The translations under genes were made by a program, and so were the position numbers. The notes beneath the pieces are model-generated. The model saw only the letters and a list, made by a program, of their open reading frames with translations, did no database searches and had not been told where the DNA came from. This document shows, piece by piece, positions 3,989 to 17,951 of a stretch of 39,966 nt of DNA (the stretch's first letter is position 1; every line of letters starts with the position of its first letter). This stretch comes from a candidate division WWE3 bacterium. Lineage in GTDB: Bacteria > Patescibacteriota > 4484-211 > GCA-002791395. The DNA lies in assembly GCA_013335095.1 (NCBI GenBank), contig JAAXWF010000003.1, forward strand, positions 220,048 to 260,013, in the 5' to 3' direction.

Positions 3989-6900
3989 ATGCAGATATTA
4001 TTAAGTCTACTACTCTCAATTCTCACATTTTCTAGATGGTTTGTATTTAAAACATTAACTTTTGGTGATTGGGGGTATTTATTCAATAAGACGTTAATAG
4101 AATGGTTCAATCTACCCTTTATCTGGAATTCACAAAGCGGACTCGGAAGTGTTAATTTAACAGCGTCCTCTTGGTTTATCAATGCGATGTTTGGGTTAGT
4201 TGGGTTCTTATTTAATACCGATTCCTGGCTCTCAGATAAGTTAATTTATATGATTCCAATAGCGATCATGTTACCTTTTTCAAGTTATTTTTTAATGGGA
4301 TTATGGATTAAAAATAAATGGTCGCGAATGATTGGATCGATAGTTTATTCGTATAATACATACTCGTTATTACTTTCATCTAACCATCTAACATTATTAG
4401 CCGCATATTCAATAGCACCTCTTTTTTTGCGTTTCTTCATAAGTCTTTTTGATAATCCTACTTTCCTTAAGATAATATTGACAGCATTAATTGCTGGAAT
4501 ACTTAGTTTCTATGATTTTAGAGTGTTATACATATTATTTGGGGTTTGCTTTATTTATTATTTATTCAATATTTCATTCGCTAAAAACAAAATAAAAATC
4601 ACAATATATTCTGCTTTTACATTAGTAATCGTAGGTCTCTACCATATCTACTGGATATTGGGTCTAGCTAATCAGGGTTCGATTACTGAAAATGCAATTT
4701 TCAGTAGAGGATTATTTGGTAGTTCATTTATGGATATTGAACAGTCTCTTACCTTGTTTCACCCTTTTTGGACTGGTGGATTACCAGCAGACTTTATCGT
4801 ACAGCCGATACCCCTATATTTGTTTTTAGTTCCAATAATAGCATTTACTTCATTTATGCTATTTCCTAAAAATAAAAATGTATTATTTTGGGTAGTTATT
4901 AGTTTAGTTGGAATATTTTTGACAAAACAAGAATCAATTCCATTTAGGAATGCTTATTTATGGTTATATCATTATCTTCCTGGGTTTAATGCCTTTAGAG
5001 AAGCAAGTAAGTTTTATTTATTAATTTCATTGGGATTCAGTGTTTTAATTGCATATACGACTGATTATATTTTAGTAAGGAAGAATAAAATCCTTAAAGT
5101 TACGTATATAGCTATCGTTGTTGGAATTTTTGGGATAAATATAGTTCCTCTAATTACAGGCAAGATTGATTCGCTGTTCGTTCCACGAACCATTGATAGC
5201 GACTATCAATTAGTGGCGAATAATTCTATTAATGATAACCGATATCATCGAACATTATGGGTACCATCTAATGTTAAATGGTCATTTTATTCATATCAGC
5301 ATCCAATACTATCTGCAGTGGGCTTAATGAATGGTCCTTTAGAACAATTTATGTTAAGCAAATCGATCGGCGTGCGTTTACCGATACAGAATCAAATCAC
5401 CGAATTGTTCAAGTATTCATATTCCGATAGGATTTTAGATTCATCATCTATACAGTATATATTCATACCCACCGAAGATTATAAGAACAATAGTAATATT
5501 TTTAAATTTTATGGTTATGATCGGCAATTTTACATAGATAGTCTCGATAATATTCCATACATTTCCAAAACGAACTCGTCACTTAATGAGCTAATAAAGT
5601 ATGAAAATGCTAACTCAGAAAATTATTTCTGGTCTGACACACAATTTTTCCAATTAGTAAAAGATGATAATTTGGACCAAACATACCATTTTGTAAGCAA
5701 TCGTTTTGATCAAACGGCTGATTTTACAACACAAATTGGTGCGAACATCAATTCATACTACATTAAAGACGTTTTTGGCTCAACCAATTACCCGGAAATA
5801 TCTAATAAAAAGATAGAAAAAAACCTACAATCTGCTAGTGCATTATCTAGTATTTATTGGAATACGGGTATGTACAACATTTTCATCGAATTGAAAAATA
5901 ACTCATTGAATGTAAGCAAAAAAATAGAAAAAGCTTTAAGAATAAATAATAAAGAGCTCAGTTTGAGTGACTCTGAGTCAATCAATCTATATTCACAGAC
6001 AGTAGATACAAATAATGATTTTTTTATACGAACTGGAAATACAATTACAAAAGTTAACGACAATAATCCAATAGATCTTGGAGTCATAAAAAAAGATATA
6101 ACTATTTATCAATCTCAGTCAACTAATTTGATCGAAAATCCATCCTTTGAAGATGGACCATGGTCAGACCGCGTAGGTGACTGTAATGCATATGACGATA
6201 ATGCAAATATAAAAATGGAAGTAGTAAATGATTCGATAGATGGGGCCTCATCTTTAGGCCTTTCTTCTATGAACCATATTGCCTGCACCGGAACCCCAAT
6301 GATACCCACTGAACCAGGTGAGTATGTATTGTCATTTAGTTACAAAAGTAATGATGCAAGGCAAGCCGGTTACTATTTGGGGTTCAGCAACGAAGATATA
6401 CCAGCAATCTCCAAGAGATTGCCGATAACATCTTCAGATTGGGTTAATTTTAGTACGCAAATATCAGTTAAACCTGAAGCTAGTGGTATTCGCTTAACTA
6501 TTTATGGATACCCAACAGATGAAAAAGAATATATCGAAACTCTGTATGACAACTTCAAATTAGTCAAAGTTACTCAAATCGCAAATTTAAATCCCAATTA
6601 TATTGAAAATTATCAAAAATTTATCCTTGAAAACAAATCTGATTACAATATTACATATTACGATGATAACTTTTTGGGTAAAAATAACATACGAAATGCA
6701 TCGTTTGAAACAGGACTTTGGCAAAATTCGGTCGGTGACTGCAATGCGTATGATGATAATGGTAAATTAGGGTTCGGTCTCGATACTGATGAAAAATCTG
6801 ATGGTGATTCATCCCTACGTCTTGAAGCTACTCGTCATACGGCATGTACAGGACCAGGTTTACTCAATGTTTCAGAGGATAAATCCTACTTATTTAGTTT

Positions 6901-7648
6901 TGATTATCAATCACCGAATGCTGAGCAGGTAGGGTATTATCTCGGATTTAACGATGATAATAACTCAATAAATAGCCGCCAAATTCCTGTAGAAAATCAA
7001 AAATGGAATACTTTTAATAAAATAATCAAAGCACCATCGGGAGCGACTGCGGTATCTCTGACCGTATATGGATACAGTAAGGATGATAAAACTAACGTTA
7101 TCACTCGTTACGATAACTTTCACCTCATTGAATTGCCAGATATCGAAGATCGGTTCTATCTTGTGAGTGAACCTGATAAAAAGCTAGAACAACCTAGAGA
7201 TATTCAATTTCAACTGATTAACCCTACACTAAAAACCGTACAAATAACTGCTGCATCAACACCTTTCTACCTAAACATGAGCGAAGCATATCATCCACAA
7301 TGGCAAGCACAAATCGAAAATACAAAAAACACTGGATTTTGGAACAGTTGGTTGCCATTTGTTAAGCCAGATCGAATCGAAGACGATAAACATTACAAAC
7401 TTAATAACTTCTTAAATGGATGGTATATCGACACTCAAGAAATTTGCAACAATAAATCGCTATGTACCCAAAATGATGATGGAACATACAACATCAAATT
7501 ACGAATAGAATTCTTTCCCCAACGCTGGTTTTATTTGGGATTGCTCATTTCGGGCACAACCCTGGTAGCTTGCTTAATGTATCTGTCGATAATCGGAGGG
7601 AAAACATTCTATAAAAAAATCCGGGAGCACAGGGCTCCCGGTGGTTGA
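3989..7648 (+). CDS. Large polytopic membrane protein (GT-C/AftD/YfhO-like N-terminus) with two carbohydrate-binding (CBM4/9-like) repeats and a C-terminal TM helix
   Basis: About 11 hydrophobic segments in the N-terminal ~390 aa with PGFNAFREASKF; two N-x-I-x-N-x-SFE-x-G repeats; SEAYHPQW and NGWYI motifs before the final TM. Confidence 0.7.
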   Translation: MQILLSLLLSILTFSRWFVFKTLTFGDWGYLFNKTLIEWFNLPFIWNSQSGLGSVNLTASSWFINAMFGLVGFLFNTDSWLSDKLIYMIPIAIMLPFSSYFLMGLWIKNKWSRMIGSIVYSYNTYSLLLSSNHLTLLAAYSIAPLFLRFFISLFDNPTFLKIILTALIAGILSFYDFRVLYILFGVCFIYYLFNISFAKNKIKITIYSAFTLVIVGLYHIYWILGLANQGSITENAIFSRGLFGSSFMDIEQSLTLFHPFWTGGLPADFIVQPIPLYLFLVPIIAFTSFMLFPKNKNVLFWVVISLVGIFLTKQESIPFRNAYLWLYHYLPGFNAFREASKFYLLISLGFSVLIAYTTDYILVRKNKILKVTYIAIVVGIFGINIVPLITGKIDSLFVPRTIDSDYQLVANNSINDNRYHRTLWVPSNVKWSFYSYQHPILSAVGLMNGPLEQFMLSKSIGVRLPIQNQITELFKYSYSDRILDSSSIQYIFIPTEDYKNNSNIFKFYGYDRQFYIDSLDNIPYISKTNSSLNELIKYENANSENYFWSDTQFFQLVKDDNLDQTYHFVSNRFDQTADFTTQIGANINSYYIKDVFGSTNYPEISNKKIEKNLQSASALSSIYWNTGMYNIFIELKNNSLNVSKKIEKALRINNKELSLSDSESINLYSQTVDTNNDFFIRTGNTITKVNDNNPIDLGVIKKDITIYQSQSTNLIENPSFEDGPWSDRVGDCNAYDDNANIKMEVVNDSIDGASSLGLSSMNHIACTGTPMIPTEPGEYVLSFSYKSNDARQAGYYLGFSNEDIPAISKRLPITSSDWVNFSTQISVKPEASGIRLTIYGYPTDEKEYIETLYDNFKLVKVTQIANLNPNYIENYQKFILENKSDYNITYYDDNFLGKNNIRNASFETGLWQNSVGDCNAYDDNGKLGFGLDTDEKSDGDSSLRLEATRHTACTGPGLLNVSEDKSYLFSFDYQSPNAEQVGYYLGFNDDNNSINSRQIPVENQKWNTFNKIIKAPSGATAVSLTVYGYSKDDKTNVITRYDNFHLIELPDIEDRFYLVSEPDKKLEQPRDIQFQLINPTLKTVQITAASTPFYLNMSEAYHPQWQAQIENTKNTGFWNSWLPFVKPDRIEDDKHYKLNNFLNGWYIDTQEICNNKSLCTQNDDGTYNIKLRIEFFPQRWFYLGLLISGTTLVACLMYLSIIGGKTFYKKIREHRAPGG
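6125..7126 (+). repeat. Intragenic tandem domain duplication (~146-148 aa units at 6125-6562 and 6683-7126)
   Basis: NLIENPSFEDGPWSDRVGDCNAYDD...HIACTG...GYYLGF...LTIYGY...YDNFKL versus NNIRNASFETGLWQNSVGDCNAYDD...HTACTG...GYYLGF...LTVYGY...YDNFHL. Confidence 0.9.
7613..7641 (-). terminator. Intrinsic terminator, array unit 1
   Basis: CCGGGAGC-acagg-GCTCCCGG (7621-7641) with A7 on + (U-tract on -); lies inside the last codons of the 1219-aa gene. Confidence 0.85.
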
Positions 7649-7658
7649 TGCGAAACGA

Positions 7659-8402
7659 CTAGGCATTATCTGCTTCGTCGATCTCCTCCAGTGTTACCAG
7701 GTAGTTTCCCTTGGCTGCGATTTCGATCTGGATAAAAGCGAAATGCCTTTCGCTACTTGCCTCTGGGCAAGTCCAGTCGTGAATCACATAACCAGACGGA
7801 TCGACCAGCGTCAATCCGATGTGATCATTGCAAATCTCGATCGTCATGGTAGCGTCTGTCTTTGACGGATCCCATGACAATGGACGTTCGATAATAATCC
7901 GATAATTCAGGCTCGCCATGGTACCCAAAGCTCTGGAACCATAGTTATACTGAAACCGGATCCGGTGCGGGTGCATTCTCACCGCGCATTGGGTCAGCTC
8001 GCTCCGGACTGCAGCAAGAATCGCCCCTGAATCGACTGTCGTTCGTGGTCGAGTACTATGCGATGTCACGCTGACGCCGCTGGGCATGATGATTCGAAGA
8101 CAAGCCGTTACGACATCGAATGGAATAATCTCATCGAACAGCTCGACCATCTTCAGCATGCGTCCGACCTCATCGTACGTCATGTAAAGGACGTGCTGTC
8201 GATGCTCACCGACGAACACAAACGCGTGCGTCGTCGTACAGATTCCGCTCTTTTCAGCATGAACGACGGTTACCGACTCGTACATACCCCCGTCCTGCGC
8301 GAAAACCAGCGCGGCTGTGGGTGGCAGAAAGCCAGCCATTGGCTGCACTGCGACGTTGAGTAACTGCTCAATCCGTTCCATTTGACTCTGGGCTGCACCC
8401 AT
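7659..8402 (-). CDS. Array gene 1: two-domain hypothetical protein, paralog of 10092-10832
   Basis: SD AAGGAGCGCCCT-ATG; C-domain HPHRIRF..NY...LNYRIIIERPL..DP..T.ATMT; collinear with gene 5 over its whole length. Confidence 0.85.
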   Translation of the reverse strand: MGAAQSQMERIEQLLNVAVQPMAGFLPPTAALVFAQDGGMYESVTVVHAEKSGICTTTHAFVFVGEHRQHVLYMTYDEVGRMLKMVELFDEIIPFDVVTACLRIIMPSGVSVTSHSTRPRTTVDSGAILAAVRSELTQCAVRMHPHRIRFQYNYGSRALGTMASLNYRIIIERPLSWDPSKTDATMTIEICNDHIGLTLVDPSGYVIHDWTCPEASSERHFAFIQIEIAAKGNYLVTLEEIDEADNA

Positions 8403-8486
8403 AGGGCGCTCCTTTCACTCTCATGAAAGACCGATAGTGTAATTATAGCATAGGAAAAAGTAAAACCGGGGACATTAAGCCCCCGG
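8403..8486 (-). promoter_or_regulatory. Intergenic module: terminator + extended -10 + CTATCGG box + SD
   Basis: Hairpin 8466-8486; TGCTATAAT (8442-8450); CTATCGG (8431-8437); AAGGAG. Confidence 0.85.
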
Positions 8487-8504
8487 ACAAGAGAAAAATC
8501 TTAA

Positions 8505-8939
8505 CTACTCGATATACCCAACCGCACGGGCGATCAATTCGCTCATCACGATGGACTGATTAGTCTGTTCAATCGCCAAGGACACGATTCCGGCACTGGG
8601 GAATACCCCAAGAATCCATCCCAGTAAATCGTCGGCACACTCATAAGCACATACAGCATGTGCTATCAGAATCCCATTGCTGTACCGAAGTATCATTTCG
8701 GCCGCGAGATCGTAAAGGGAAATGGTCATGGTTGCGACCGTAATGGGCGGATGATCAGTTAACGGACGTTCGATCACAATCTGATAAATCAGATCCGAAA
8801 CCTCCTCGGCTTGTGGCGCATTATTAAAAAGAACCCGAACTCGATGAGGATGACCAACTACCTGATTAGTGGTAAGTTCGGCCACAACCCGTTCGATCAT
8901 ACCATCCATTGAGACTGCAGTTAGATCTGCACCAGACAT
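8505..8939 (-). CDS. Array gene 2: single-domain hypothetical protein
   Basis: SD GAGGAG; GHPHRVRVLFN...LIYQIVIERPL...ATMTI...LLGWIL....AGI matches the C-domain of genes 1 and 5. Confidence 0.85.
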   Translation of the reverse strand: MSGADLTAVSMDGMIERVVAELTTNQVVGHPHRVRVLFNNAPQAEEVSDLIYQIVIERPLTDHPPITVATMTISLYDLAAEMILRYSNGILIAHAVCAYECADDLLGWILGVFPSAGIVSLAIEQTNQSIVMSELIARAVGYIE

Positions 8940-9038
8940 ACCGGTCTCCTCTCGTGGTAAGTACCACTGTATCTAACTTTGAACCCAAAAGATTGTAACA
9001 TGAACAACAAAAAAACCGGGAGCAAAGGCTGCTCCCGG
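8940..9038 (-). promoter_or_regulatory. Intergenic module: terminator + extended -10 + leader hairpin + SD
   Basis: CCGGGAGCA-aaggc-TGCTCCCGG (9016-9038); TGTTACAAT (8992-9000); GTGGTA-ag-TACCAC (8954-8967); GAGGAG. Confidence 0.85.
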
Positions 9039-9063
9039 CATTGGTTTGGCACGGTCTATTTTT

Positions 9064-9441
9064 TTATTCGAAGCTGATCGCGTTGATCCCACGCGCCTTC
9101 AGAAGGCGAAGGGTCAGGTAGAGCACCTCCATCGGATTGGTGATCGGAACGGAGGTGTAACCGAGATCCTCAACGGTGGTTAGCTCGGTATAAGCCTCCT
9201 TGGAGACTATAATCTCCATCGTGTACTCACCGATATTGACAACGACAGCGCTGTCATTGTCATGAAAGATCACGATCTGGGCTATCTTGCCGGGTACAAA
9301 TCGGCAGATAACCGTTTTGACGACTTTGACGTCTTCATTTAGTGAAAAGAGTCCGAAGATGTCATCCGAACCTGTGCGGCTTGTCAAAACGCCTTGACCA
9401 AGCAACTGCTCGATCACTTCACGAGAATCTTGCGCATCCAT
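9064..9441 (-). CDS. Array gene 3: hypothetical protein
   Basis: SD AAGGAGCGTCCA-ATG; N-terminal MDA...IEQLL as in genes 1 and 5; QIVI strand; C-terminal NP.EVL...L.LL.A.GI. Confidence 0.8.
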   Translation of the reverse strand: MDAQDSREVIEQLLGQGVLTSRTGSDDIFGLFSLNEDVKVVKTVICRFVPGKIAQIVIFHDNDSAVVVNIGEYTMEIIVSKEAYTELTTVEDLGYTSVPITNPMEVLYLTLRLLKARGINAISFE

Positions 9442-9520
9442 TGGACGCTCCTTACGCTAACTAAAGACCGATAGTGTTTAGTATACCATAAAAAAACCGG
9501 GAGCATCAAATCTCCCGGTT
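9442..9520 (-). promoter_or_regulatory. Intergenic module: terminator + extended -10 + CTATCGG box + SD
   Basis: AACCGGGAG...CTCCCGGTT (9495-9520); TGGTATACT (9480-9488); CTATCGG (9468-9474). Confidence 0.85.
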
Positions 9521-9543
9521 GTAGTTTACTCACGTATCACTAC

Positions 9544-9972
9544 TTAAATGACAGAGGCATTCACATTTGCCATTTCAAGACGTACACTCCCAAGCTGAAG
9601 TTGTGCGAACATGCGAAGCGTCGTGGCAACGTATTCAGCGCCGTTTATCACGCACATGTTCATATGGGCTAGAGGATGAAAGATATCATCGCCAATCACC
9701 ACCAAGACAATGAGTTGGCGAAAAATATTGATGCTGATGCCGACCATGGACTTCTCATCCTTTGGTCTTACCACAATCCGAACAACGACGCCGCTGGTAC
9801 TGACCTCATCGTAAAATAGGCCAGTAATAACAAGCTCCCCGTGATCTCTCCGCAGTTCTTGCAGCCGATTACTCAGCGTGTATAAGAACTCCGAAATCGA
9901 ACACTCAAGTGGAAAGCAACCAAACAGACTCCCGGAGTCATTCAGGTAGTCGATCCATTGACGTGCATCCAT
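9544..9972 (-). CDS. Array gene 4: hypothetical protein
   Basis: SD AAGGAGCGTCCG-ATG; MDA start; VRIVVRP resembles the family RIVIERP strand. Confidence 0.8.
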   Translation of the reverse strand: MDARQWIDYLNDSGSLFGCFPLECSISEFLYTLSNRLQELRRDHGELVITGLFYDEVSTSGVVVRIVVRPKDEKSMVGISINIFRQLIVLVVIGDDIFHPLAHMNMCVINGAEYVATTLRMFAQLQLGSVRLEMANVNASVI

Positions 9973-10067
9973 CGGACGCTCCTTACGTATTAGACTAGAC
10001 CGATAGCACGTATTTTAACATAAATATGAAAAGAAAATAAAAACCGGGAGCATAGGACTGCCCCCGG
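9973..10067 (-). promoter_or_regulatory. Intergenic module: terminator + extended -10 + CTATCGG box + SD
   Basis: Hairpin 10044-10067 (G.U pair on - strand); TGTTAAAAT (10012-10020); CTATCGG (10000-10006). Confidence 0.85.
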
Positions 10068-10091
10068 TCAACTTATACGAACTGAATATCG

Positions 10092-10832
10092 TCAATCTAT
10101 ACTGTCGGTGAATTCGTAAGCAACCTGCCTGATGCCCGCCGAAGCGATTTCGATCTGTAGCCAGACCAACATCGACTCAAACTCAGACGTCATGCAGATA
10201 ACCTCCCTCATCACGATCCCGGACGAGTGGATCAAGCTGAGTACCGTTCTATCGTCGAATAGATCCACTGTCATTGTCGCTTCTGTCTGAAGTGGATCGG
10301 CGCCCAATGGTCGTTCGATCACGATTCGATAGTTCAGTTTCGCGGGCAAACTGATAGCTGTCTCGCCGTAATTGAACTCGATGCGAACTCGATGTGGATG
10401 CCCGGGCAGAGCCCTTTCAGTTAGCTCACTTCGCACAAGTGCGAGTAGCCCTTCTGAATGGACTTCCATGATAGGACTCATCGATGACGTGATCACATTG
10501 ATCTGGTTCTCAAGAAGAATACGCAAATACACACACCCGATTTCGTGTGTATTCTTTACCGTAAACACTTCTGGTCCAGCCAGAATCTTACCGTCTGAGT
10601 CATAACTCAGATAGGTTACCTGCTCACCCTTTTCTCCGGAAAAGGTGAATGCATACGTGATCGCGTACCGTACATCATCACGGAGGTGAACGACATCAAG
10701 CCACTCATACATTGCGGCTTGACCTGGAGCAGCGAAAATCATCTGAGCACTGGGTCCCTGAAATCCTTGATGAGGTTTGACAGCCACAAACAAGAGCTGT
10801 TCGACACGATCCAATGAACTGATTGCATCCAC
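10092..10832 (-). CDS. Array gene 5: two-domain hypothetical protein (GTG start), paralog of gene 1
   Basis: SD AAGGAGCGTCCT-GTG; VRSELT...GHPHRVRIEFNYG...LNYRIVIERPL..DP..TEATMT...QIEIA..G. Confidence 0.85.
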   Translation of the reverse strand: MDAISSLDRVEQLLFVAVKPHQGFQGPSAQMIFAAPGQAAMYEWLDVVHLRDDVRYAITYAFTFSGEKGEQVTYLSYDSDGKILAGPEVFTVKNTHEIGCVYLRILLENQINVITSSMSPIMEVHSEGLLALVRSELTERALPGHPHRVRIEFNYGETAISLPAKLNYRIVIERPLGADPLQTEATMTVDLFDDRTVLSLIHSSGIVMREVICMTSEFESMLVWLQIEIASAGIRQVAYEFTDSID

Positions 10833-10915
10833 AGGACGCTCCTTTACTTATATCTATAGCCGATAGTGTTGATTATATCATTTGAAAAAAATCCGGGAGC
10901 AAGATATGCCCCCGG
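10833..10915 (-). promoter_or_regulatory. Intergenic module: terminator + extended -10 + CTATCGG box + SD
   Basis: Hairpin 10893-10915; TGATATAAT (10872-10880); CTATCGG (10860-10866). Confidence 0.85.
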
Positions 10916-10933
10916 ACAGAGCGGTTTAACTCA

Positions 10934-11365
10934 TTAGTACCCTAAAGCTAGATGCATCTCTTTAGGGATGTAGTCCTTCTCATCGATGGCCTTCATGGTC
11001 AGATCTGTCATTCCAGCTTTCGTGAGTAGGCCCAGAATCCAGAAAAGGGCACCTTCAGGGTAATCGATTTCACTAATGAGGTGAACCGGAGCCCCTGCAT
11101 CTTGTTCGAGCGTTGCAATCACGAATGCTGAATCATAGACGGTACAGACAACCTGACCTGCGCCATTAAACGTACCGTCAGCATTCGGCAGTTCAATGAT
11201 TATTCGGGCACAAAGGTCCGAGCTCACCAGTGTTAGCGCTTCGCCGACGTTGAATTCAATCCGAATGCGAGGAAGGCAGCCATCGACACTTCGACCGCTA
11301 AAGAGTTCTGGAAAGTATCGCTCCAGATCCTCTTCGTTCACAACTCGATATACGACGCCTGACAT
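10934..11365 (-). CDS. Array gene 6: hypothetical protein
   Basis: SD AAGGAGCTGACC-ATG; PRIRIEFN...DLCARIIIELPNA...PEGALFWILGLLTKAG; closest to gene 7. Confidence 0.85.
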   Translation of the reverse strand: MSGVVYRVVNEEDLERYFPELFSGRSVDGCLPRIRIEFNVGEALTLVSSDLCARIIIELPNADGTFNGAGQVVCTVYDSAFVIATLEQDAGAPVHLISEIDYPEGALFWILGLLTKAGMTDLTMKAIDEKDYIPKEMHLALGY

Positions 11366-11453
11366 GGTCAGCTCCTTTCGGCATCTGCCGACATCAACGA
11401 ATCACGGTTTATGAATTGTACCATTATAAATATGGGAGCATTGCTGCTCCCAT
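11366..11453 (-). promoter_or_regulatory. Intergenic module with degenerate terminator + extended -10 + leader hairpin + SD
   Basis: ATGGGAGCA-ttgc-TGCTCCCAT (11432-11453); TGGTACAAT (11415-11423); TCGGCA-tc-TGCCGA (11378-11391). Confidence 0.75.
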
Positions 11454-11490
11454 TCATATTCACATAAAATTGTGGACGAACCCCGATCAC

Positions 11491-11895
11491 TTAATCGATC
11501 GCAATATACGCTTCAGCTGGTACCTGAACCTCTTCCTGAATGCAACTGAGCCTGAGGTTATTAACCCCGGCATTGCCAATAAGCTCAAGCATCCATGCAA
11601 GAAATCCATCAGGATTATCCAGCGGTCCGAGCAATACCGGTAAGCTCGGATCGGGGAAGGTAATCACCGCGACGCAGATGTACACATCCATCTTGATCTG
11701 CTCGGCTAAACCACCAGCATTCGGACGGTTTATTATGATACGAAAGCACAGATCCGTGGCTTCGGTTTCCAGCAACTCACTTGAGTTTATCTGAACGAGT
11801 GCCTCAAGGTTGCGTCCGTGCGTCAAGTTATCCGTGATCTCTTTCTTCCAGAGCTCTAAAAGCTCTTCGTCAAAAATAACTCGATACTCTGACAT
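11491..11895 (-). CDS. Array gene 7: hypothetical protein
   Basis: SD AAGGAGCTGACCT-ATG; YRV..EE.LE, DLCFRIIINRPNA, PDGFLAWML.L...AG shared with gene 6. Confidence 0.85.
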   Translation of the reverse strand: MSEYRVIFDEELLELWKKEITDNLTHGRNLEALVQINSSELLETEATDLCFRIIINRPNAGGLAEQIKMDVYICVAVITFPDPSLPVLLGPLDNPDGFLAWMLELIGNAGVNNLRLSCIQEEVQVPAEAYIAID

Positions 11896-11988
11896 AGGTC
11901 AGCTCCTTATGGCATACGCCATCTTCGATCAATTACGGCATCTGGATTGTACCATCAAATGAAAAAACCGGGAGCGTGATGCCCCCGG
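11896..11988 (-). promoter_or_regulatory. Intergenic module: terminator + extended -10 + leader hairpin + SD
   Basis: Hairpin 11968-11988; TGGTACAAT (11946-11954); ATGGC-atac-GCCAT (11909-11922). Confidence 0.85.
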
Positions 11989-12009
11989 TACCTTGTATTT
12001 GGCTTTTGT

Positions 12010-12432
12010 TTACACCGACAAATCGTCAAAGCTGAATGAAACTTCAACGATCGGATCACATACATCCATGTGGATGTTCGTGTTTAAGGTTTGTCCAATA
12101 ATCTCGAAAACACGCGACACAAAAGTCGCGATATTTTCGATGTCACACACTAAGATCTCACTACGAACAATGCCACCACTCAACGTTCGTTGAAGAAACG
12201 CCTTATTGGCGTGCAACGAAACATATGTTGCCACCTGGCCCGAAAAGCCAGGTTGATCATACGGTGGTCGCTCGATGACAATTCGACGATAAACCGCTAC
12301 TGATCCAAGGGGAGCGGCTTCACGAAGCCACGTAATCCTTGGCTGGACTCCTGACGGATGACGATATTGCAATTCCTGAGTGAGGCTCTGCAATACCTCC
12401 TCTATGGAGACATGACGCTGGGGGTCGGCCAT
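12010..12432 (-). CDS. Array gene 8: hypothetical protein (start revised to ATG 12432); second gene of a bicistronic unit
   Basis: GGAGG-aagtt-ATG 12 nt after the gene 9 stop; QPRIT...RRIVIERP.YDQPG. Confidence 0.8.
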   Translation of the reverse strand: MADPQRHVSIEEVLQSLTQELQYRHPSGVQPRITWLREAAPLGSVAVYRRIVIERPPYDQPGFSGQVATYVSLHANKAFLQRTLSGGIVRSEILVCDIENIATFVSRVFEIIGQTLNTNIHMDVCDPIVEVSFSFDDLSV

Positions 12433-12444
12433 AACTTCCTCCAA

Positions 12445-12861
12445 TTACATGTATCCGAGGGGTTCCTTAAGACGATCAGGCATGTCTTGGGGAAGATCCT
12501 CAAGCTCCTCAATCTTAAAGCTTGCGATCCCACATCGCTTCAAGATTGTCAGAATCCATCCAAGCACGTCATTCGGATCAACGATCTCACACACGGACAT
12601 CATTGCAGGCTTGTCTGCGTCCTGATACTGAATGACAAGCTCCGCGGCCTCCTCATAAATATCGAGGGTGATAGTTGACGCTATTAGCGTCGGCTCAGGC
12701 GTGCTTGAGGTGATCACGATCCGATATGCCAAAACGGAGACTATCAGCTCCTCAGTGCACAGAAACAAGACTGCGTTAGCCGTATTCCCAGCTCGAGACT
12801 GATCCAGTAACTCTGATTCAATGCTCAGAAGCAGCGAATCGTCCGATACGAGATCTGACAT
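12445..12861 (-). CDS. Array gene 9: hypothetical protein (start revised to ATG 12861)
   Basis: SD AAGGAGCTGACT-ATG; the longer ORF call runs through promoter and terminator; LAYRIVI, IYEEAAELVIQY, DVLGWIL...GI and terminal LGY resemble genes 2 and 6. Confidence 0.85.
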   Translation of the reverse strand: MSDLVSDDSLLLSIESELLDQSRAGNTANAVLFLCTEELIVSVLAYRIVITSSTPEPTLIASTITLDIYEEAAELVIQYQDADKPAMMSVCEIVDPNDVLGWILTILKRCGIASFKIEELEDLPQDMPDRLKEPLGYM

Positions 12862-12959
12862 AGTCAGCTCCTTTACCAACTTCTTGTTGGCATAAACTAG
12901 GGCCGATAGTGTATTGATTGTACCATGAAAAAAAATGCCGGGAACAAAACGTCCCCGGC
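12862..12959 (-). promoter_or_regulatory. Intergenic module: terminator + extended -10 + CTATCGG box + leader hairpin + SD
   Basis: Hairpin 12937-12959; TGGTACAAT (12917-12925); CTATCGG (12903-12909); CCAAC-ttctt-GTTGG (12876-12890). Confidence 0.85.
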
Positions 12960-12982
12960 TGTTTGAGAAAGATGCCAAACCT

Positions 12983-13357
12983 TTACCGAGATGAGTACAT
13001 CGGATGAACCATGCGGATCATACAAAGTCCCATCTGGGCAGTCCACTCATGGACAAAGTCCATAAGCTGACACTTATTAACTTCATTAAACACACGGGGT
13101 GCACGTACGACCTGCCCCATCGCTTGTGTTTCATACATCTGAGCCGTGCCATCGTTCTCAACAACGAGATGGACACATTCGTCTAGAACAGCGTTCGGTC
13201 CAAATTCCGACTTACGGCGATGCTGCGCAATTATCGCGCGAACATCTCCGGTGTCATCGGTAAGGATATGCACAAACGGCATATCAAAACCGACCCGGGG
13301 TGCGGTCATAAGTACATATACCCGATGAATATCGGGCGCCGCGACTATGTGGTTCAT
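12983..13357 (-). CDS. Array gene 10: hypothetical protein; second gene of a bicistronic unit
   Basis: AGGAG SD within the 14-nt gap after the gene 11 stop; P..GF..P...and G....P.VF pattern resembles the N-domain of genes 1 and 5. Confidence 0.75.
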   Translation of the reverse strand: MNHIVAAPDIHRVYVLMTAPRVGFDMPFVHILTDDTGDVRAIIAQHRRKSEFGPNAVLDECVHLVVENDGTAQMYETQAMGQVVRAPRVFNEVNKCQLMDFVHEWTAQMGLCMIRMVHPMYSSR

Positions 13358-13371
13358 TGCCCATCTCCTAG

Positions 13372-13791
13372 TTAGATAAGGGGGAAACCGATTTCACTAT
13401 CATTCGTGCCAAGGGTATGAACGTAAACAGTCACGATTGGCAATCCCGCACATAAGGCGAGTACGATTCCGATGATCCGGTCTGACGATTCCATATCGAA
13501 TCGCTGGGGTTGATTACGAACATATCCGCCATGAAATGACGTCACAAACTCCACAAACCCTACACCGAACTGAATAAACGTGGTGCTCGTTTTTACGGCA
13601 CCAGGTTGTTCACTCACATCCCATTCAATCACTACCCGTCCGTTGATCGTTAGAGTCTCGGGTGATACAGGATCTTCGATGAGGATCGTTATCCGAGGGG
13701 GAAAACCTTCGACGCATTTTCGCTTGATTCTACGTTGCAGTTCCTGCAAAGCATAGATCAGGCTAGCGTTCTCCAGATCACTTCCTGACAT
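13372..13791 (-). CDS. Array gene 11: hypothetical protein (start revised to ATG 13791)
   Basis: SD AAGGAGCTGACC-ATG; PPRIT...GRVVIEWD..EQPG...S.TFI; closest to gene 13. Confidence 0.85.
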   Translation of the reverse strand: MSGSDLENASLIYALQELQRRIKRKCVEGFPPRITILIEDPVSPETLTINGRVVIEWDVSEQPGAVKTSTTFIQFGVGFVEFVTSFHGGYVRNQPQRFDMESSDRIIGIVLALCAGLPIVTVYVHTLGTNDSEIGFPLI

Positions 13792-13873
13792 GGTCAGCTC
13801 CTTTATACTCAATCGACCGATAGTCAAAGTGATTGTATCATAAAAAAACCCGGATGCGATGTGCACCCGGGTT
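13792..13873 (-). promoter_or_regulatory. Intergenic module: terminator + extended -10 + CTATCGG box + SD
   Basis: Hairpin 13847-13873; TGATACAAT (13832-13840); CTATCGG (13817-13823). Confidence 0.85.
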
Positions 13874-13897
13874 CCGTTTGACTCGAATCTGCTTTGG

Positions 13898-14305
13898 TTA
13901 GTGGATCGGTCGATCAAGAACGATGTCGTTGGTTTGCGCCTCACGAATCGAGGTGATTTGTTGCAGCGCGCATAAGCGACGGATGGCTGCGATCGTCTCT
14001 TCAACCGAATCAATTGGGTAGTAAAGCGAAGCGGTTCGCTTTAGGCCTCCGTCGTAGACAGTGAATAATTCGACTTCATTGTCGTAGAAGACGACAAACA
14101 TCGTCTCATTCCCAGCTAAGCCAGGGCGGAATCGGGGATTCCTTTCGATCACGAACCTCGCCCTAAGCAACGTAGCGTATCGCGTGGCGACGGCACCGTC
14201 ATTTTTCAGGAGAGTAACCCGAGGAGCTCGGGTTTTCTCAGGATCGAAATGAAGCGACACAGCGACCTCGGCTAAAAGCCGTTCCATCGGATGGCTGTCT
14301 GACAT
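13898..14305 (-). CDS. Array gene 12: hypothetical protein
   Basis: SD AAAGGA-CTGACC-ATG; APRVTL...ARFVIERNP...PG...VELFT..DGG. Confidence 0.85.
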   Translation of the reverse strand: MSDSHPMERLLAEVAVSLHFDPEKTRAPRVTLLKNDGAVATRYATLLRARFVIERNPRFRPGLAGNETMFVVFYDNEVELFTVYDGGLKRTASLYYPIDSVEETIAAIRRLCALQQITSIREAQTNDIVLDRPIH

Positions 14306-14352
14306 GGTCAGTCCTTTCCTTATATGTGATATCCGATAGTGATATTATAGCA
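14306..14352 (-). promoter_or_regulatory. Extended -10 + CTATCGG box + SD (no terminator hairpin upstream)
   Basis: TGCTATAAT (14344-14352); CTATCGG (14333-14339). Confidence 0.8.
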
Positions 14353-14379
14353 TCCCATAGTACTCATTTATATGAACGG

Positions 14380-14808
14380 TTATGAATCGGACATTCCTAT
14401 ATCAAAAGACTCTTTTTTGTCCGAAATACTTACGGGAATCTTGTGCACCTGAATTATTTTGATATCGTAGGTTGCGCCTAAAATGAACAATGCTCCAAGA
14501 ATAACTGACGGGGATTCCACACTAGCAATGTGATATGGACCATGAGTAAATCCACCATCGTCAGTAGTAAATAGCACCACTTGATTTGGAAGTAGATCAA
14601 TAAAGGTGCGAGATTGTCCTATACCACCAGGATGGTCTTTTAGATCCCACTCGATAGCTATTCTACCGGTGAGCTCAGTTAAACATCCCGCCAGTGCCGT
14701 AGGGTGAATTGCGACACTGATACGACCAAAGCTTCCTTTCGAATGGGTCGTTTCCAAGATATGTCGCAGTTGAGCGAGCAAATCATCTAGTGTTACCTCG
14801 ACTGACAT
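14380..14808 (-). CDS. Array gene 13: hypothetical protein
   Basis: SD GAGGAGG; GRIS...GRIAIEWD..DHPG...SRTFI...VVLFT..DGG...ES...ILG. Confidence 0.85.
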   Translation of the reverse strand: MSVEVTLDDLLAQLRHILETTHSKGSFGRISVAIHPTALAGCLTELTGRIAIEWDLKDHPGGIGQSRTFIDLLPNQVVLFTTDDGGFTHGPYHIASVESPSVILGALFILGATYDIKIIQVHKIPVSISDKKESFDIGMSDS

Positions 14809-14892
14809 AAGCCCTCCTCACATAACGGATGATTGAACCTATAAAATTATATAGTATTTGAATTAAATGCCGGAAAGTTAGACTTCCCGGCA
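14809..14892 (-). promoter_or_regulatory. Intergenic module: terminator + -10 + SD
   Basis: TGCCGGAAAGT-tag-ACTTCCCGGCA (14868-14892); TATAAT on - (14846-14851), no TGn extension. Confidence 0.75.
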
Positions 14893-14899
14893 GGCATTA

Positions 14900-15301
14900 T
14901 CACACCATAGAATCAGGAGATGCGTCATGTGCTCGTACAAAAACAATTTGCGCACCAACAGATCGTATAGTCGCGGCACACACTATGTGACCGACGATAG
15001 CGATCGGGTCAATATCCTCAAATCGCTCAACATCACGAGAGTTGACGCCGGCAGCAATCACTTCTCGAATCTGCAAAGAATGCATTCCCGAATCACTCAT
15101 ACTAAAGAGATACAAGTACGTGACTCGACTCTCTCCTCCAGGAGCCTGCGGATCATCGTGCTCAATAATGATCCGTCGGATAGTTGGTTCGGTGTGCATA
15201 CCAGAGGCGAGTACGGTAAGTGTAATATTGTGTCGCGTCTTTTGTCGATCTATATGCCGACTAATGTGCTCAACAAGTCCTGGGGGAAGACTGATGGCCA
15301 T
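14900..15301 (-). CDS. Array gene 14: hypothetical protein (start revised to ATG 15301)
   Basis: SD AAGGAGTGGTCAT-ATG; RRIIIEHDDPQAPGG...TYL...DIDP. Confidence 0.8.
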   Translation of the reverse strand: MAISLPPGLVEHISRHIDRQKTRHNITLTVLASGMHTEPTIRRIIIEHDDPQAPGGESRVTYLYLFSMSDSGMHSLQIREVIAAGVNSRDVERFEDIDPIAIVGHIVCAATIRSVGAQIVFVRAHDASPDSMV

Positions 15302-15385
15302 ATGACCACTCCTTATGATTACAACACCTGATTGTAAGTTTTTAGATTGTAACATGAAAAAGGGGAGGCAACGGTCTGCCTCCCC
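15302..15385 (-). promoter_or_regulatory. Intergenic module: terminator + extended -10 + leader hairpin + SD
   Basis: GGGGAGGCA-acggtc-TGCCTCCCC (15362-15385); TGTTACAAT (15346-15354); TTACAA...TTGTAA (15319-15337). Confidence 0.8.
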
Positions 15386-15393
15386 GGTTTGAA

Positions 15394-15762
15394 CTACGAC
15401 TGGTCCTCAGTTTCGAGGACAAACAGGATCGACTGCGCAAGTTGTGCGCAGCACCATACCAGACACTCCATGATCCGGCTCGGATGAATGTCCTTTATCA
15501 CCGACTGCTCGGTGCAAAGGCCAGATTCTTCGAAATACAGGTGCTGACCCAACAGAGACACGACGATCCTCCGCTGCTCTGTTCCGGCTTCATCGTAGTG
15601 GAGGATTTGAATCACATCAGGTATGGCACCATACGATGTCGTGATTACCCGAACCGCAACCTCATGACCGGGCAAAGCCGGTAACATGAGCATGAGCTGA
15701 GCCCGAAGAATCACGTCGCGGATGTCCTGGCAGAACCCAGTTCCGGCAATTGTGTCAGACAT
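15394..15762 (-). CDS. Array gene 15: hypothetical protein
   Basis: SD AAAGGA; contains ALPGH (as gene 5) and KDIHPSRIM (compare EDIDPIAI in gene 14, YVDPSQLM in gene 16). Confidence 0.75.
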   Translation of the reverse strand: MSDTIAGTGFCQDIRDVILRAQLMLMLPALPGHEVAVRVITTSYGAIPDVIQILHYDEAGTEQRRIVVSLLGQHLYFEESGLCTEQSVIKDIHPSRIMECLVWCCAQLAQSILFVLETEDQS

Positions 15763-15875
15763 AACCTGACGTCCTTTGCTCTATGCGGATTAACCGATAG
15801 TACGTAGTATATCATAAATGAAAGTAGTAGCTAAAAAATACAAAATGAAAGCCGAGAGAAAAAACTTCTCCCGGC
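15763..15875 (-). promoter_or_regulatory. Intergenic module: terminator + extended -10 + CTATCGG box + SD
   Basis: Hairpin 15851-15875; TGATATACT (15806-15814); CTATCGG (15794-15800). Confidence 0.8.
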
Positions 15876-15883
15876 CCGTTTTA

Positions 15884-16228
15884 CTAACGTGTAATTATGC
15901 GAACCTCACCGTCGAAATGATCGTTAATGAGTTTCATGAGTTGAGAAGGATCAACGTAGGCAAGTTGCTGCTTACTATCGATCCATTCTCCACCATTGTG
16001 TCCGATATGGTATCGAATCCCGCCTGCATCAATAATGAAGAAGACGGAATGAGTTCGATAAGTGCCAATCGAACGCTTGTGGCGGTGATTTACCACGATC
16101 TGCTCAAGGGACCTTGCGTCATCGACAAAACGATAGATCAACAGGATTTCTGGTTGATTATAGTCTTGAGCCTGAGCTAGGCTCTCTCGCAAAAGCTCCA
16201 GGACATGCTGTCCGCCAACGGCTTGCAT
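15884..16228 (-). CDS. Array gene 16 (first in transcription order): hypothetical protein
   Basis: SD AAGGAGCTTGCA-ATG; TGGTATAAT at 16277-16285; LELL helix, QIVVNHR strand, VDPSQLM helix cap. Confidence 0.8.
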   Translation of the reverse strand: MQAVGGQHVLELLRESLAQAQDYNQPEILLIYRFVDDARSLEQIVVNHRHKRSIGTYRTHSVFFIIDAGGIRYHIGHNGGEWIDSKQQLAYVDPSQLMKLINDHFDGEVRIITR

Positions 16229-16369
16229 TGCAAGCTCCTTCCATATTGTGAAGTTCGCTTAAAACCGCGCAAATCGATTATACCAATTCAATGTAACTTT
16301 AAAACCTGTAGTATACTCATACCTGAGAATCGGTCTCATGATTGGCAAGGATAGGTAGGAGGACCAACA

Positions 16370-17434: not shown

Positions 17435-17456
17435 GGTTGTTCGTTGAAAATAATAT

Positions 17457-17488
17457 GCCCCGGGGAGAACTTCCCCGGGGCTTTTTTT
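17457..17488. terminator. Intrinsic terminator between convergent genes, possibly bidirectional
   Basis: GCCCCGGGGA-gaact-TCCCCGGGGC followed by T7, with A-rich left flank. Confidence 0.9.
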
Positions 17489-17810
17489 ATGGGTCCTTAT
17501 TAGACACTCGTTTGCGAGACGAGCCCGTTTCTGGCGCACGTCTTAACTTATCCAGCACGATAGCTACCGCCACGTTAAACGGAATCGCGTAGAAATTAGA
17601 TTCCACGATTCCGGCACGTTCCTGTATGGATACCCACAGGACGATAACGCCACCACCAAACGGCTGAACCTGGAGTGTTTCGTTTGGTAGCGAAACGACG
17701 AGTAGTTCAGATGGAATGTTCCACCATCGCGAAAGCGCCTGATCAGAATCTTTAAACACCGCAAACTTCCGCTTAAGCACGCGTTCAAGTCGTGCTTCAT
17801 GGGCGCTCAT
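17487..17810 (-). CDS. Hypothetical protein (start revised to ATG 17810); helix/beta/helix pattern
   Basis: GGGAGG-gtgatt-ATG; upstream -10 candidates at 17850-17875; leader hairpin TATCACTG-gt-CAGTGATA. Confidence 0.7.
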   Translation of the reverse strand: MSAHEARLERVLKRKFAVFKDSDQALSRWWNIPSELLVVSLPNETLQVQPFGGGVIVLWVSIQERAGIVESNFYAIPFNVAVAIVLDKLRRAPETGSSRKRVSNKDP

Positions 17811-17951
17811 AATCACCCTCCCTGTATCACTGGTCAGTGATATCCATGACTTATACCAGTACGGATATTATAACCATTAAGAAAAGCCTACCGGTCAATT
17901 GCTATAATACTGGTGCTGATTAAAGTGGTGAATACTATTTCGGAGGTGACT

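What the first reader, a model, noticed from the sequence alone, without database searches (positions are those of the whole stretch)
7613..15875. Repeated terminator-promoter-RBS spacer; hairpin mismatches favour the minus-strand RNA
Seen: 13 related hairpins (7621, 8466, 9016, 9495, 10044, 10893, 11432, 11968, 12937, 13847, 14868, 15362, 15851), mostly CCGGG(A/G)GC-loop-GCTCCCGG plus a U-tract. Inside the array each is followed within ~1-35 nt by a -10 box (nearly always TGnTA-x3-T) and then an SD. In eight hairpins (8466, 10044, 10893, 11968, 12937, 13847, 14868, 15851) the stem mismatch is A.C on + but G.U on -. No consistent -35 is present; the terminator occupies that position. Inference: selection maintains mostly monocistronic, insulated expression, resembling phage early/host-takeover regions more than an operon. 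The spacers could also seed unequal crossover.
Basis: partly seen in the sequence, partly recalled or inferred. Interest (0 to 1): 0.8.

Follow-up and report, generated by a model that had tools for sequence, protein, structure and literature searches.

The report
Tandem gene cassettes with coupled terminators
A small-genome bacterium carries sixteen diverged copies of an unknown small gene in a row, nearly all with their own transcription stop, start and ribosome site; the wiring is tidy but of a kind already described.

Summary
All 13 hairpins are at the stated places. All read as minus-strand RNA hairpins followed by T-tracts. Their stem shows covariation: 96% of 104 cells pair, 6 of 8 pairs change on both sides, and 0 of 500 shuffles reach this.

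The hairpins are intrinsic terminators of 16 minus-strand genes (7659-16228). The genes encode small acidic proteins of an orphan family: 11 clear paralogous domains and 7 looser ones, with no Pfam, PHROG, PADLOC or NCBIfam match. There is one outside relative among 1.84 billion representative proteins.

Twelve hairpins are followed 7-37 nt later by an extended -10 box. That box is the genome's usual promoter type. A Shine-Dalgarno site follows, and 8 spacers carry an array-specific CTATCGG box at the predicted start.

The layout matches the "promoter-coupled terminators" of a 2026 preprint, which are enriched between tandem related genes.

Third codon positions of the paralogs are saturated, yet the spacers remain alignable. 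This points to selection on the regulatory parts.

No phage or mobile-element signal was found, and no RNA data exist.

Verdict: real and well preserved, a dense example of a known architecture. The proteins' function is unknown. Interest is moderate to low.

The parts
7621..7641 (-). Terminal hairpin after g1 (CCGGGAGC-loop-GCTCCCGG plus ATTTTTTT). It ends the array. It overlaps the last codons of the convergent + ORF 3989-7648.
7659..8402 (-). g1, 247 aa, a two-domain protein (loose B half, then family A half)
8403..8504 (-). Spacer before g1: hairpin 8466-8486, -10 TGCTATAAT 8442-8450, CTATCGG 8431-8437, SD
8505..8939 (-). g2, 144 aa, family A. Modelled with AlphaFold2 at pLDDT 92.
8940..9063 (-). 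Spacer before g2: hairpin 9015-9039, -10 TGTTACAAT 8992-9000, SD. No CTATCGG.
9064..9441 (-). g3, 125 aa, loose group B
9442..9543 (-). Spacer before g3: hairpin 9495-9520, -10 TGGTATACT 9480-9488, CTATCGG 9468-9474, SD
9544..9972 (-). g4, 142 aa, loose group B
9973..10091 (-). Spacer before g4: hairpin 10042-10069, -10 TGTTAAAAT 10012-10020, CTATCGG 10000-10006, SD
10092..10832 (-). g5, 246 aa, two-domain (B then A), 41% identical to g1
10833..10933 (-). Spacer before g5: hairpin 10891-10917, -10 TGATATAAT 10872-10880, CTATCGG 10860-10866, SD
10934..11365 (-). g6, 143 aa, family A
11366..11490 (-). Spacer before g6: hairpin 11432-11453, -10 TGGTACAAT 11415-11423, small stem-loop next to the SD. 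No CTATCGG.
11491..11895 (-). g7, 134 aa, family A
11896..12009 (-). Spacer before g7: hairpin 11967-11989, -10 TGGTACAAT 11946-11954, small stem-loop next to the SD
12010..12432 (-). g8, 140 aa, family A. Follows g9 after 12 nt with an SD only, so a bicistronic pair.
12445..12861 (-). g9, 138 aa, family A
12862..12982 (-). Spacer before g9: hairpin 12937-12959, -10 TGGTACAAT 12917-12925, CTATCGG 12903-12909, SD
12983..13357 (-). g10, 124 aa, loose group B. Follows g11 after 14 nt with an SD only, so a bicistronic pair.
13372..13791 (-). g11, 139 aa, family A. The start was corrected from 13794 to 13791.
13792..13897 (-). Spacer before g11: hairpin 13845-13875, -10 TGATACAAT 13832-13840, CTATCGG 13817-13823, SD
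13898..14305 (-). g12, 135 aa, family A
14306..14379 (-). Spacer before g12: no hairpin. -10 TGCTATAAT 14344-14352, CTATCGG 14333-14339, SD.
14380..14808 (-). g13, 142 aa, family A
14809..14899 (-). Spacer before g13: hairpin 14868-14892, -10 CTATATAAT 14846-14854 (no TG), SD
14900..15301 (-). g14, 133 aa, the most diverged family A member
15302..15393 (-). Spacer before g14: hairpin 15362-15385 (GGGGAGGCA/TGCCTCCCC), -10 TGTTACAAT 15346-15354, SD
15394..15762 (-). g15, 122 aa, loose group B
15763..15883 (-). Spacer before g15: hairpin 15849-15877, -10 TGATATACT 15806-15814 (37 nt after the stem), CTATCGG 15794-15800, SD
15884..16228 (-). g16, 114 aa, loose group B, the first gene of the array
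16229..16369 (-). Region before g16, shared with the divergent + gene at 16370: -10 TGGTATAAT 16277-16285 and SD. No array-type hairpin.

Best explanation
WHAT IT IS. The region is a tandem array of 16 minus-strand genes made by old serial duplication of one self-contained expression cassette. The cassette is extended -10 promoter, 25-40 nt leader, strong SD, an ORF of about 115-145 codons, then an intrinsic terminator.

The 13 hairpins are Rho-independent terminators of the minus-strand mRNAs. Twelve of them sit 7-37 nt upstream of the next gene's -10 box. The terminator's 3' arm and T-tract therefore occupy the spacer and -35 zone of the next promoter. This is the 'promoter-coupled terminator' layout.

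HOW IT WORKS (INFERRED). The housekeeping RNA polymerase starts at TGnTAnAAT without a -35. It transcribes one gene, or two for g11-g10 and g9-g8, and perhaps g13-g12. It stops at the GC-rich hairpin plus U-tract. The next promoter fires independently, so every paralog is expressed without polarity or read-through from its neighbour.

A CTATCGG box at the predicted start of 8 of the 14 promoters suggests a shared extra control. This is inference only.

THE PROTEINS. They are small and acidic, with an alpha+beta fold that has no clear match. Their function is unknown. My weak guess (about 0.2) is binding or neutralising proteins of the immunity or anti-effector type.
For: SHOWN BY SEQUENCE.
- Hairpins with T-tails on the coding strand, 29 against 8.7 +/- 2.4 in shuffles.
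- Fold energies of -15 to -21 kcal/mol. All 9 G.U cells of the core stem favour the minus strand and none favours the plus strand.
- Covariation in 6 of 8 stem pairs, reached by 0 of 500 shuffles on four of five measures. Loops are not conserved.
- 13 of 14 spacers carry TGNTANAMT. All 14 carry an SD and a start.
- The SD-proximal part of the spacer tracks the gene downstream: AAGGAGCGTCC before the genes that start MDA or MGA, and AAGGAGCTGACC before the genes that start MS. The pair g6/g7 shares 75% over 59 nt of leader. So promoter and gene were duplicated together.
- Third-codon identity of the paralogs is 24-41%, whereas the spacers keep 58-74% matches against 47-55% when shuffled.
- Coupling exists genome-wide but is concentrated here. 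An extended -10 lies within 40 nt after 11 of 14 array hairpins, 21 of 415 other hairpins and 22 of 5000 random sites.
- The spacer family is array-specific. It was not found in 149 other genomes of the phylum.

FROM A PAPER. The preprint 10.64898/2026.08.19.745784 describes terminators within 35 bp of a same-strand start. It reports the T-tract just upstream of the -10 and the stem DNA in the -35 position. It reports enrichment between tandem genes of related function. I read the abstract and Results parts 1 and 3.
Against: - No RNA evidence exists. No RNA run holds this DNA, so starts, ends and termination efficiency are predictions.
- Two hairpins are further from the -10 (24 and 37 nt), and one junction has no hairpin.
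- The primary sequence of the stem (CCGGGRGC) is kept better than pairing alone requires. This leaves room for a second role of the palindrome.
- The CTATCGG box is unexplained, and 6 promoters lack it.
- The function of the proteins rests on no homology. The structural matches are weak: best Z 5.9, no Foldseek match at E <= 0.001 in the PDB, and best viral E 2e-3.
Confidence: 0.78

Rival explanations
1. One long operon. The hairpins would be mainly intercistronic RNA-stabilising or processing elements, or weak attenuators. The -10-like boxes would contribute little.
For: All 16 genes share one orientation with short spacers. Three junctions lack a terminator. No RNA data exclude read-through.
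Against: Every hairpin has a U-tract. 13 of 14 spacers keep a near-consensus extended -10, of the same type that precedes genes elsewhere in the genome. These boxes are conserved across paralogs whose synonymous sites are saturated.
Confidence: 0.1
2. The stem palindrome also serves as the DNA operator of a dedicated transcription factor, and the CTATCGG box may do so too. The terminators would then have a dual function and the array would be one regulon.
For: The stem sequence CCGGGRGC/GCYCCCGG is array-specific (5 of 5 strict matches). CTATCGG directly after a -10 occurs 10 times in the genome, 8 of them in the array. The preprint shows one terminator palindrome that is a LexA site.
Against: The stem-to-(-10) distance varies from 7 to 37 nt, which is poor for a fixed-geometry activator. 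Stems show compensatory changes and G.U intermediates, as expected for RNA-level selection. No regulator has been identified.
Confidence: 0.1
3. A phage-derived or mobile-element early, anti-defence or host-takeover module.
For: The proteins are small, acidic orphans with strong autonomous promoters. Array genes have GC3 of 51% against a genome mean of 36 +/- 8%. The two best viral fold matches are uncharacterised phage proteins at E about 2e-3, TMq 0.40-0.41.
Against: 0 PHROG families for the 10 proteins tested. No PADLOC family at E <= 0.01. No integrase in the window; the two tyrosine recombinases lie on other contigs. No tRNA. The flanks are housekeeping genes. The promoters are of the host's usual type.
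Confidence: 0.07
4. A cassette array of the integron type, in which the hairpins are recombination sites.
For: Same-orientation small ORFs are separated by imperfect inverted repeats.
Against: The cassettes are paralogs, each with its own promoter. The hairpins are short, carry U-tracts and favour the RNA strand. No integrase lies nearby. No Rfam family reached its gathering score. No joints appear in the only assembly.
Confidence: 0.03

Closest known systems
Promoter-coupled terminators (Fletcher, Forrest, Cooper, Adams, Kapanidis, Grainger; bioRxiv 10.64898/2026.08.19.745784, 2026). I read the abstract and Results parts 1 and 3.
   Same: An intrinsic terminator lies directly upstream of a same-strand promoter. 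The T-tract sits just before the -10. The stem DNA lies in the -35 zone. The site is between tandem genes of related function.
   Different: Here the promoter is a TG-extended -10 with no usable -35. The layout is repeated 11-12 times in 8.7 kb, as a duplicated sequence family with its own stem consensus. The predicted gap from termination site to start site is about 12-23 nt for most, rather than the paper's peak near 10. Nothing is mapped experimentally.
Homogeneous polyimmunity loci and polyimmunity proteins of polymorphic toxin systems (Zhang et al. 2012, PMC3482391). I read passages found by term search.
   Same: Many tandem paralogs of one small alpha+beta protein lie in one orientation. 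They are functionally equivalent rather than pathway partners. Some members are fused as two-domain proteins (g1, g5). There is one such locus in the genome.
   Different: No match to any Pfam family. By recall, Pfam includes the Imm and SUKH families. There is no toxin gene or recombinase next to the array. The paper infers small intergenic gaps and a polycistronic message, whereas these genes have 74-141 nt spacers, most with a terminator and each with a promoter.
Extended -10 (TGn) sigma-70 promoters (established knowledge, recalled).
   Same: TGnTAnAAT is present without a -35 hexamer.
   Different: None in kind. It appears to be the standard promoter of this genome.
Integron gene-cassette arrays with attC sites (recalled).
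   Same: Small ORFs lie in one orientation, separated by hairpin-forming repeats.
   Different: The ORFs are paralogs with their own promoters. The hairpins are terminators with U-tracts. There is no integrase nearby.

Membership tests
Intrinsic (Rho-independent) terminator | GC-rich stem-loop on the transcribed RNA strand | tested here: met
   13 hairpins with stems of 8-13 pairs and -14.9 to -21.1 kcal/mol on the minus strand. Covariation.
Intrinsic (Rho-independent) terminator | U-tract directly 3' of the stem | tested here: met
   All 13 pass the rule of at least 5 T in 8 nt on the minus strand. The plus-strand tails shown look T-poor by eye; that call did not apply the 5-in-8 rule to them. 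The scan, which does apply it, also lists the 9015-9039 hairpin as a plus-strand site.
Intrinsic (Rho-independent) terminator | Lies downstream of a stop codon on the coding strand | tested here: met
   The stem begins 6-37 nt after the stop of the upstream gene.
Intrinsic (Rho-independent) terminator | RNA 3' ends map to the U-tract | not testable with these tools
   No RNA run holds the region.
Promoter-coupled terminator (bioRxiv 10.64898/2026.08.19.745784) | Termination site within 35 bp upstream of a same-strand transcription start | tested here: inconclusive
   Prediction only. The stem end lies 7-24 nt before the -10 hexamer in 11 of 12 spacers and 37 nt in one. No mapped RNA ends exist.
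Promoter-coupled terminator (bioRxiv 10.64898/2026.08.19.745784) | [quoted passage not shown] | tested here: met
Promoter-coupled terminator (bioRxiv 10.64898/2026.08.19.745784) | Located between tandem genes of related function | tested here: met
   The flanking genes are paralogs.
Promoter-coupled terminator (bioRxiv 10.64898/2026.08.19.745784) | The coupled promoter raises termination efficiency | not testable with these tools
   This needs in vitro transcription or reporter assays.
Extended -10 sigma-70 promoter | A TG one base upstream of a TATAAT-like hexamer | tested here: met
   13 of 14 spacers. The same layout precedes genes elsewhere in the genome.
Homogeneous polyimmunity locus (PMC3482391) | Four or more tandem paralogs in one orientation | tested here: met
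   16 genes, with 11 clear family A domains.
Homogeneous polyimmunity locus (PMC3482391) | The proteins belong to a recognised immunity family (SUKH, Imm families) | tested here: not met
   No Pfam family at E <= 0.1 for any of the 16 proteins. No NCBIfam family above its cut-off for the 7 tested.
Homogeneous polyimmunity locus (PMC3482391) | Linked toxin gene, toxin cassette or recombinase | tested here: not met
   None among the window's ORFs scanned. The recombinases lie on other contigs.
Homogeneous polyimmunity locus (PMC3482391) | Neutralises a toxin | not testable with these tools
   This needs an experiment.
Integron cassette array | An adjacent integron integrase | tested here: not met
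   No PF00589 match on contig C2. The two matches are on C7 and C3.
Integron cassette array | Promoterless, mostly unrelated cassettes bounded by attC sites | tested here: not met
   The cassettes are paralogs with their own promoters. The attC core sites themselves were not tested.
Phage early / host-takeover module | Phage genome or prophage context | tested here: not met
   0 PHROG families for the 10 proteins tested. No tRNA. The flanks are housekeeping genes.

The most novel reading that the evidence does not exclude
The array is a lineage-specific locus of a new alpha+beta fold family in a Patescibacteria genome. It would be analogous to a polyimmunity or anti-effector locus. Every paralog is an autonomous cassette built on a promoter-coupled terminator. 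The conserved stem palindrome and the CTATCGG start box would be operators of one dedicated regulator. The whole battery could then be switched together, while cassettes are gained or lost without polar effects.
Probability: 0.12. Interest if true: 0.55.

Novelty: new member of a known kind. Interest (0 to 1): 0.35.

Why it matters
The locus is a natural, repeated example of terminator-promoter coupling. It has thirteen diverged copies of one terminator, twelve of them followed by a promoter, so it carries its own comparative data.

It shows which positions selection keeps once neutral sites are saturated. It shows G.U intermediates of compensatory change. It could serve as a compact part set for insulated expression in small-genome bacteria that are hard to study.

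It also flags an orphan protein family with a confident but unmatched fold, expanded 16-fold in a 1.3 Mb genome. Such an expansion in a reduced genome suggests a strong local selective pressure.

None of this overturns current understanding.

Tried and rejected
- RNA evidence: no RNA holder is listed for the region.
- Read variants: laying the two DNA runs gave only one contig, possibly the source of this DNA, with no variants, joints or loose ends in the array.
- The single outside relative P0013 found nothing in genome or metagenome contigs. Its own search returned only itself, on a 2.4 kb contig.
- P0012, P0014 and P0015 from the profile search are long repeat proteins. I reject them as accumulated weak repeat matches.
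- ESM Atlas: no usable hit for g2, and scores of 0.83 or less for g5.
- The AlphaFold2 model of the two-domain g5, from a 2-row alignment, was poor (pLDDT 42) and was not used.
- Complex prediction for g11 with g10 gave no verdict.
- hhalign found no relation between family A and group B (probability 1.5%). The A profile hits g3 at E 4e-4 and g4 at 0.019 in a 16-sequence database. By eye they share a C-terminal helix-strand motif. I leave the link open.
- Synteny with the five same-family genomes was not informative. The 1219-aa neighbour was not found. The amylase is only 39-43% identical.
- A likeness of CACTATCGG to single-subunit phage polymerase promoters (recalled) was considered. No PF00940 match was found, but the control genomes gave none either, so the test is empty.
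- Literature: searches for such arrays in the candidate phyla radiation found nothing relevant. A search on terminator-promoter overlap found only the preprint already cited.
- Supplementary tables of the preprint were not seen.

Full report
SETTING. The window is part of contig C2 of a 1.34 Mb, 42% GC genome in 8 contigs. Relatives of its class II aminoacyl-tRNA synthetase (Pfam tRNA-synt_2) are Patescibacteria MAGs. The genomes nearest to it are 0.5-2.0 Mb.

The finding's span is filled by 16 ORFs on the minus strand, 7659-16228. To the left lies a 31% GC glycosyltransferase cluster and a convergent 1219-aa membrane protein. To the right lie unknown small genes, then an amylase, tRNA synthetases, FtsW/RodA and L21/L27. 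Array genes have 49% GC and GC3 of 51%. The genome's 516 long ORFs average 42% GC and 36 +/- 8% GC3. The spacers themselves are at 42% GC.

THE OBSERVATION. The consensus scan found 29 terminator-like sites in 7000-17000, against 8.7 +/- 2.4 in shuffles.

I folded both strands as RNA. No plus-strand fold has a G.U. The energies sum to -227.5 kcal/mol on minus and -186.7 on plus.

On an alignment of the 13 hairpins, an 8-pair stem pairs in 96.2% of 104 cells. Six pairs change on both sides (15 cells). There are 9 G.U cells. The only 4 unpaired cells are in the outermost pair. Four of five measures were reached by 0 of 500 shuffles and the fifth by 1 of 500. Sliding the 3' partner destroys the signal. 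My first bracket string was one column off, which the slide control exposed. Loops are not conserved.

These are therefore selected RNA hairpins of the minus strand. Position 13/26 of the stem (A-U 6, G.U 4, G-C 2, U-A 1) looks like compensatory change caught in passing.

THE SPACERS. Aligning the 14 long spacers gives one plan:
- stop codon;
- 6-37 nt;
- hairpin;
- T-tract;
- (A)TGnTAnAAT;
- 4-8 nt;
- CTATCGG, in 8 spacers;
- AAGGAG;
- 6-9 nt in 12 of the 14 spacers;
- start codon.

The g13 row read 3 nt between SD and start. The g11 row was computed with a start 3 nt off; the true start is 13791 and the gap is 6.

TGNTANAMT occurs 24 times in the window (15.8 +/- 3.5 expected). Thirteen of these sit in 13 of the 14 spacers on the minus strand. 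CTATCGG occurs 9 times (4.1 +/- 2.0 expected), 8 in the spacers. The stem ends 7-37 nt before the -10 hexamer, and 18 nt or less in 10 of 12. So the 3' arm and T-tract lie where a -35 and spacer would be. The two-hexamer scan finds no excess of classical promoters (12 against 14.9).

Three junctions differ. g13/g12 has a promoter but no hairpin. g9/g8 and g11/g10 are 12 and 14 nt with only an SD. The prediction is 14 promoters, 13 terminators, and mostly monocistronic RNAs.

IS THE MODULE GENERIC? It is partly generic in kind, but not in sequence.
- Extended -10 followed by an SD and a start is the genome's common layout: 42 pattern matches, 31 outside the array. It also stands before the window's M50 peptidase, ProRS, IleRS and L21 genes.
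- My own scan lists 432 terminator-like hairpins in the genome. Of these, 37 have CCGGG or CCCGG in the 5' arm, 12 in the array and 25 elsewhere.
- An extended -10 within 40 nt downstream is found after 11 of 14 array hairpins, 21 of 415 others and 22 of 5000 random sites. Terminator-promoter coupling is thus a genome-wide habit, about 11-fold over chance, and is concentrated in the array.
- The array's sequence family is its own. The strict CCGGGRGC-N3-9-GCYCCCGG occurs 5 times in the genome, all in the array.
- A covariance model of the whole spacer (R1) scores 13 array spacers at 50.4-84.9 bits and the hairpin-less one at 33.8. The best site elsewhere scores 33.9. About a dozen weaker sites are plain terminator, -10 and SD junctions.
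- The model found nothing at E <= 0.001 in 149 other genomes of the phylum.

THE GENES.
- BLAST links g1, g2, g5-g9 and g11-g13 at 21-41% identity. With g14 they form family A, which has 11 domains and the motif YRIVIERP.
- g3, g4, g10, g15, g16 and the N-terminal halves of g1 and g5 form a looser group B.
- hhalign sees no A-B relation. The A profile hits g3 at E 4e-4 and g4 at 0.019 among the 16 proteins, colinearly. By eye they share a C-terminal helix-strand motif. I leave this open.
- Family A occurs nowhere else in the genome. It was not found in the 40 nearest genomes or in 400 other genomes of the phylum (the two sets overlap).
- A profile search of 1.84 billion representatives gave 15 proteins at E <= 0.001. 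Eleven are the window's own. Three are long repeat proteins that I reject. One 131-aa protein is a real relative (E 4.8e-8). It is a singleton on a 2.4 kb contig.
- Word-indexed searches with A and B returned only the window's proteins.
- Family scans gave no usable match: none in Pfam, none in PHROGs for 5 array proteins, none at E <= 0.01 in PADLOC for 8, and none above cut-off in NCBIfam for 7.
- All 16 proteins are acidic (pI 4.05-6.36). Several have a hydrophobic stretch near the C-terminus, with a Kyte-Doolittle 19-residue mean up to 2.5.
- In the AlphaFold2 model of g2, residues 102-126 are modelled at high confidence as a helix (102-112) followed by a strand (121-126). The model has pLDDT 92 and pTM 0.87 from 12 rows.
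- The fold has no clear match. Foldseek found nothing at E <= 0.001 in the PDB. The best Z is 5.9, to a chain of a contact-dependent inhibition complex, below the tool's stated noise range. Two uncharacterised phage proteins match at E about 2e-3, TMq 0.40-0.41.

AGE AND SELECTION. In 13 paralog pairs, third-codon identity is 24-41%, which is saturation. Their upstream spacers keep 58-74% matches, against 47-55% for shuffled partners. The gap is largest for g1/g5, g3/g4, g3/g5 and g4/g5.

The SD-proximal part of the spacer follows the downstream gene's type. The leaders of g6 and g7 share 75% over 59 nt. So promoter, leader and gene were copied as a unit.

Loops and the sequence between motifs have diverged, which argues against recent gene conversion. 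The longest near-identical tracts are 17-23 nt. That is little substrate for homologous exchange today.

COMPARISON WITH WHAT IS KNOWN. A 2026 preprint (10.64898/2026.08.19.745784; abstract and Results parts 1 and 3 read) defines promoter-coupled terminators. These have termination sites within 35 bp of a same-strand start. The T-tract lies just upstream of the -10 and the stem DNA lies at the -35. They have shorter intergenic regions and are enriched between tandem genes of related function. The coupled promoter aids termination, and one stem doubles as a LexA site. The array fits the anatomical criteria by prediction. Its mechanistic criteria cannot be tested here.

For the proteins, the nearest concept is the homogeneous polyimmunity locus with fused polyimmunity proteins (PMC3482391, passages read). 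The array shares the tandem paralogs, one orientation and domain fusions. It fails on family membership and on a linked toxin or recombinase. It also differs in having a terminator and a promoter at most junctions, where that paper infers a polycistronic message.

Phage, integron and mobile-element readings lack support.

VERDICT. The monocistronic, insulated reading is the best one available but rests on sequence alone. The phage analogy is not supported.

The architecture is a dense, duplicated instance of a layout that is now described and that this genome uses elsewhere. What remains unexplained:
- the array-specific stem consensus;
- the CTATCGG box at the predicted start;
- why a 1.3 Mb genome keeps 16 diverged copies of an orphan protein.

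Noticed in passing
own genome contig C3, about 274432-275010 (+): This is one of only two sites outside the array where an extended -10-like box is directly followed by CTATCGG (TGATATGAT-ACGA-CTATCGGCC, after its own terminator), and the only one where the box follows within a few bases. It precedes a 157-aa protein with a zinc ribbon and a weak sigma-70 region 4 match (E 2.7e-4, below cut-off). It is a possible member of the same regulon, or its regulator.
   Followed up: partly
window 11366-11400, 11897-11925, 12862-12895 (minus strand): The leaders of g6, g7 and g9 each carry a small stem-loop directly upstream of the SD (CGGCA..TGCCG, ATGGC..GCCAT, CCAAC..GTTGG). These may be leader stabilisers or translation controls.
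   Followed up: no
window 1-7000 versus 7600-19000: There is a sharp composition step. The glycosyltransferase and methyltransferase cluster and the 1219-aa membrane protein are at 31% GC. The array and its right-hand neighbours are at 45-50% GC. The genome mean is 42%.
   Followed up: partly
window 16370-24697: The right flank also holds orphan genes, several of which end in their own terminators (17457, 19580, 21418, 22592). They include a 354-aa protein divergent from g16, an M50-type membrane peptidase, and two small Cys-rich proteins (18677-18991 minus, 21040-21408 plus). At 21418-21464 the stem's 3' arm supplies a -35-like TTCACG for a TG-extended -10, which is another coupled site.
   Followed up: partly
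window 3989-7648 (+) and 23015-24697 (+): Two large membrane proteins on either side of the island match NCBIfam MmpA (trehalose lipid delivery) below its cut-off, at E 3.7e-4 and 4.2e-47. The first ORF's last codons run through the terminal hairpin of the array.
   Followed up: no
loci L009-L011, L014, L015 and others: Several MAG records that are the closest relatives by this aminoacyl-tRNA synthetase are titled 'uncultured Gammaproteobacteria'. They sit among Patescibacteria records at similar identity. The labels are probably wrong.
   Followed up: no
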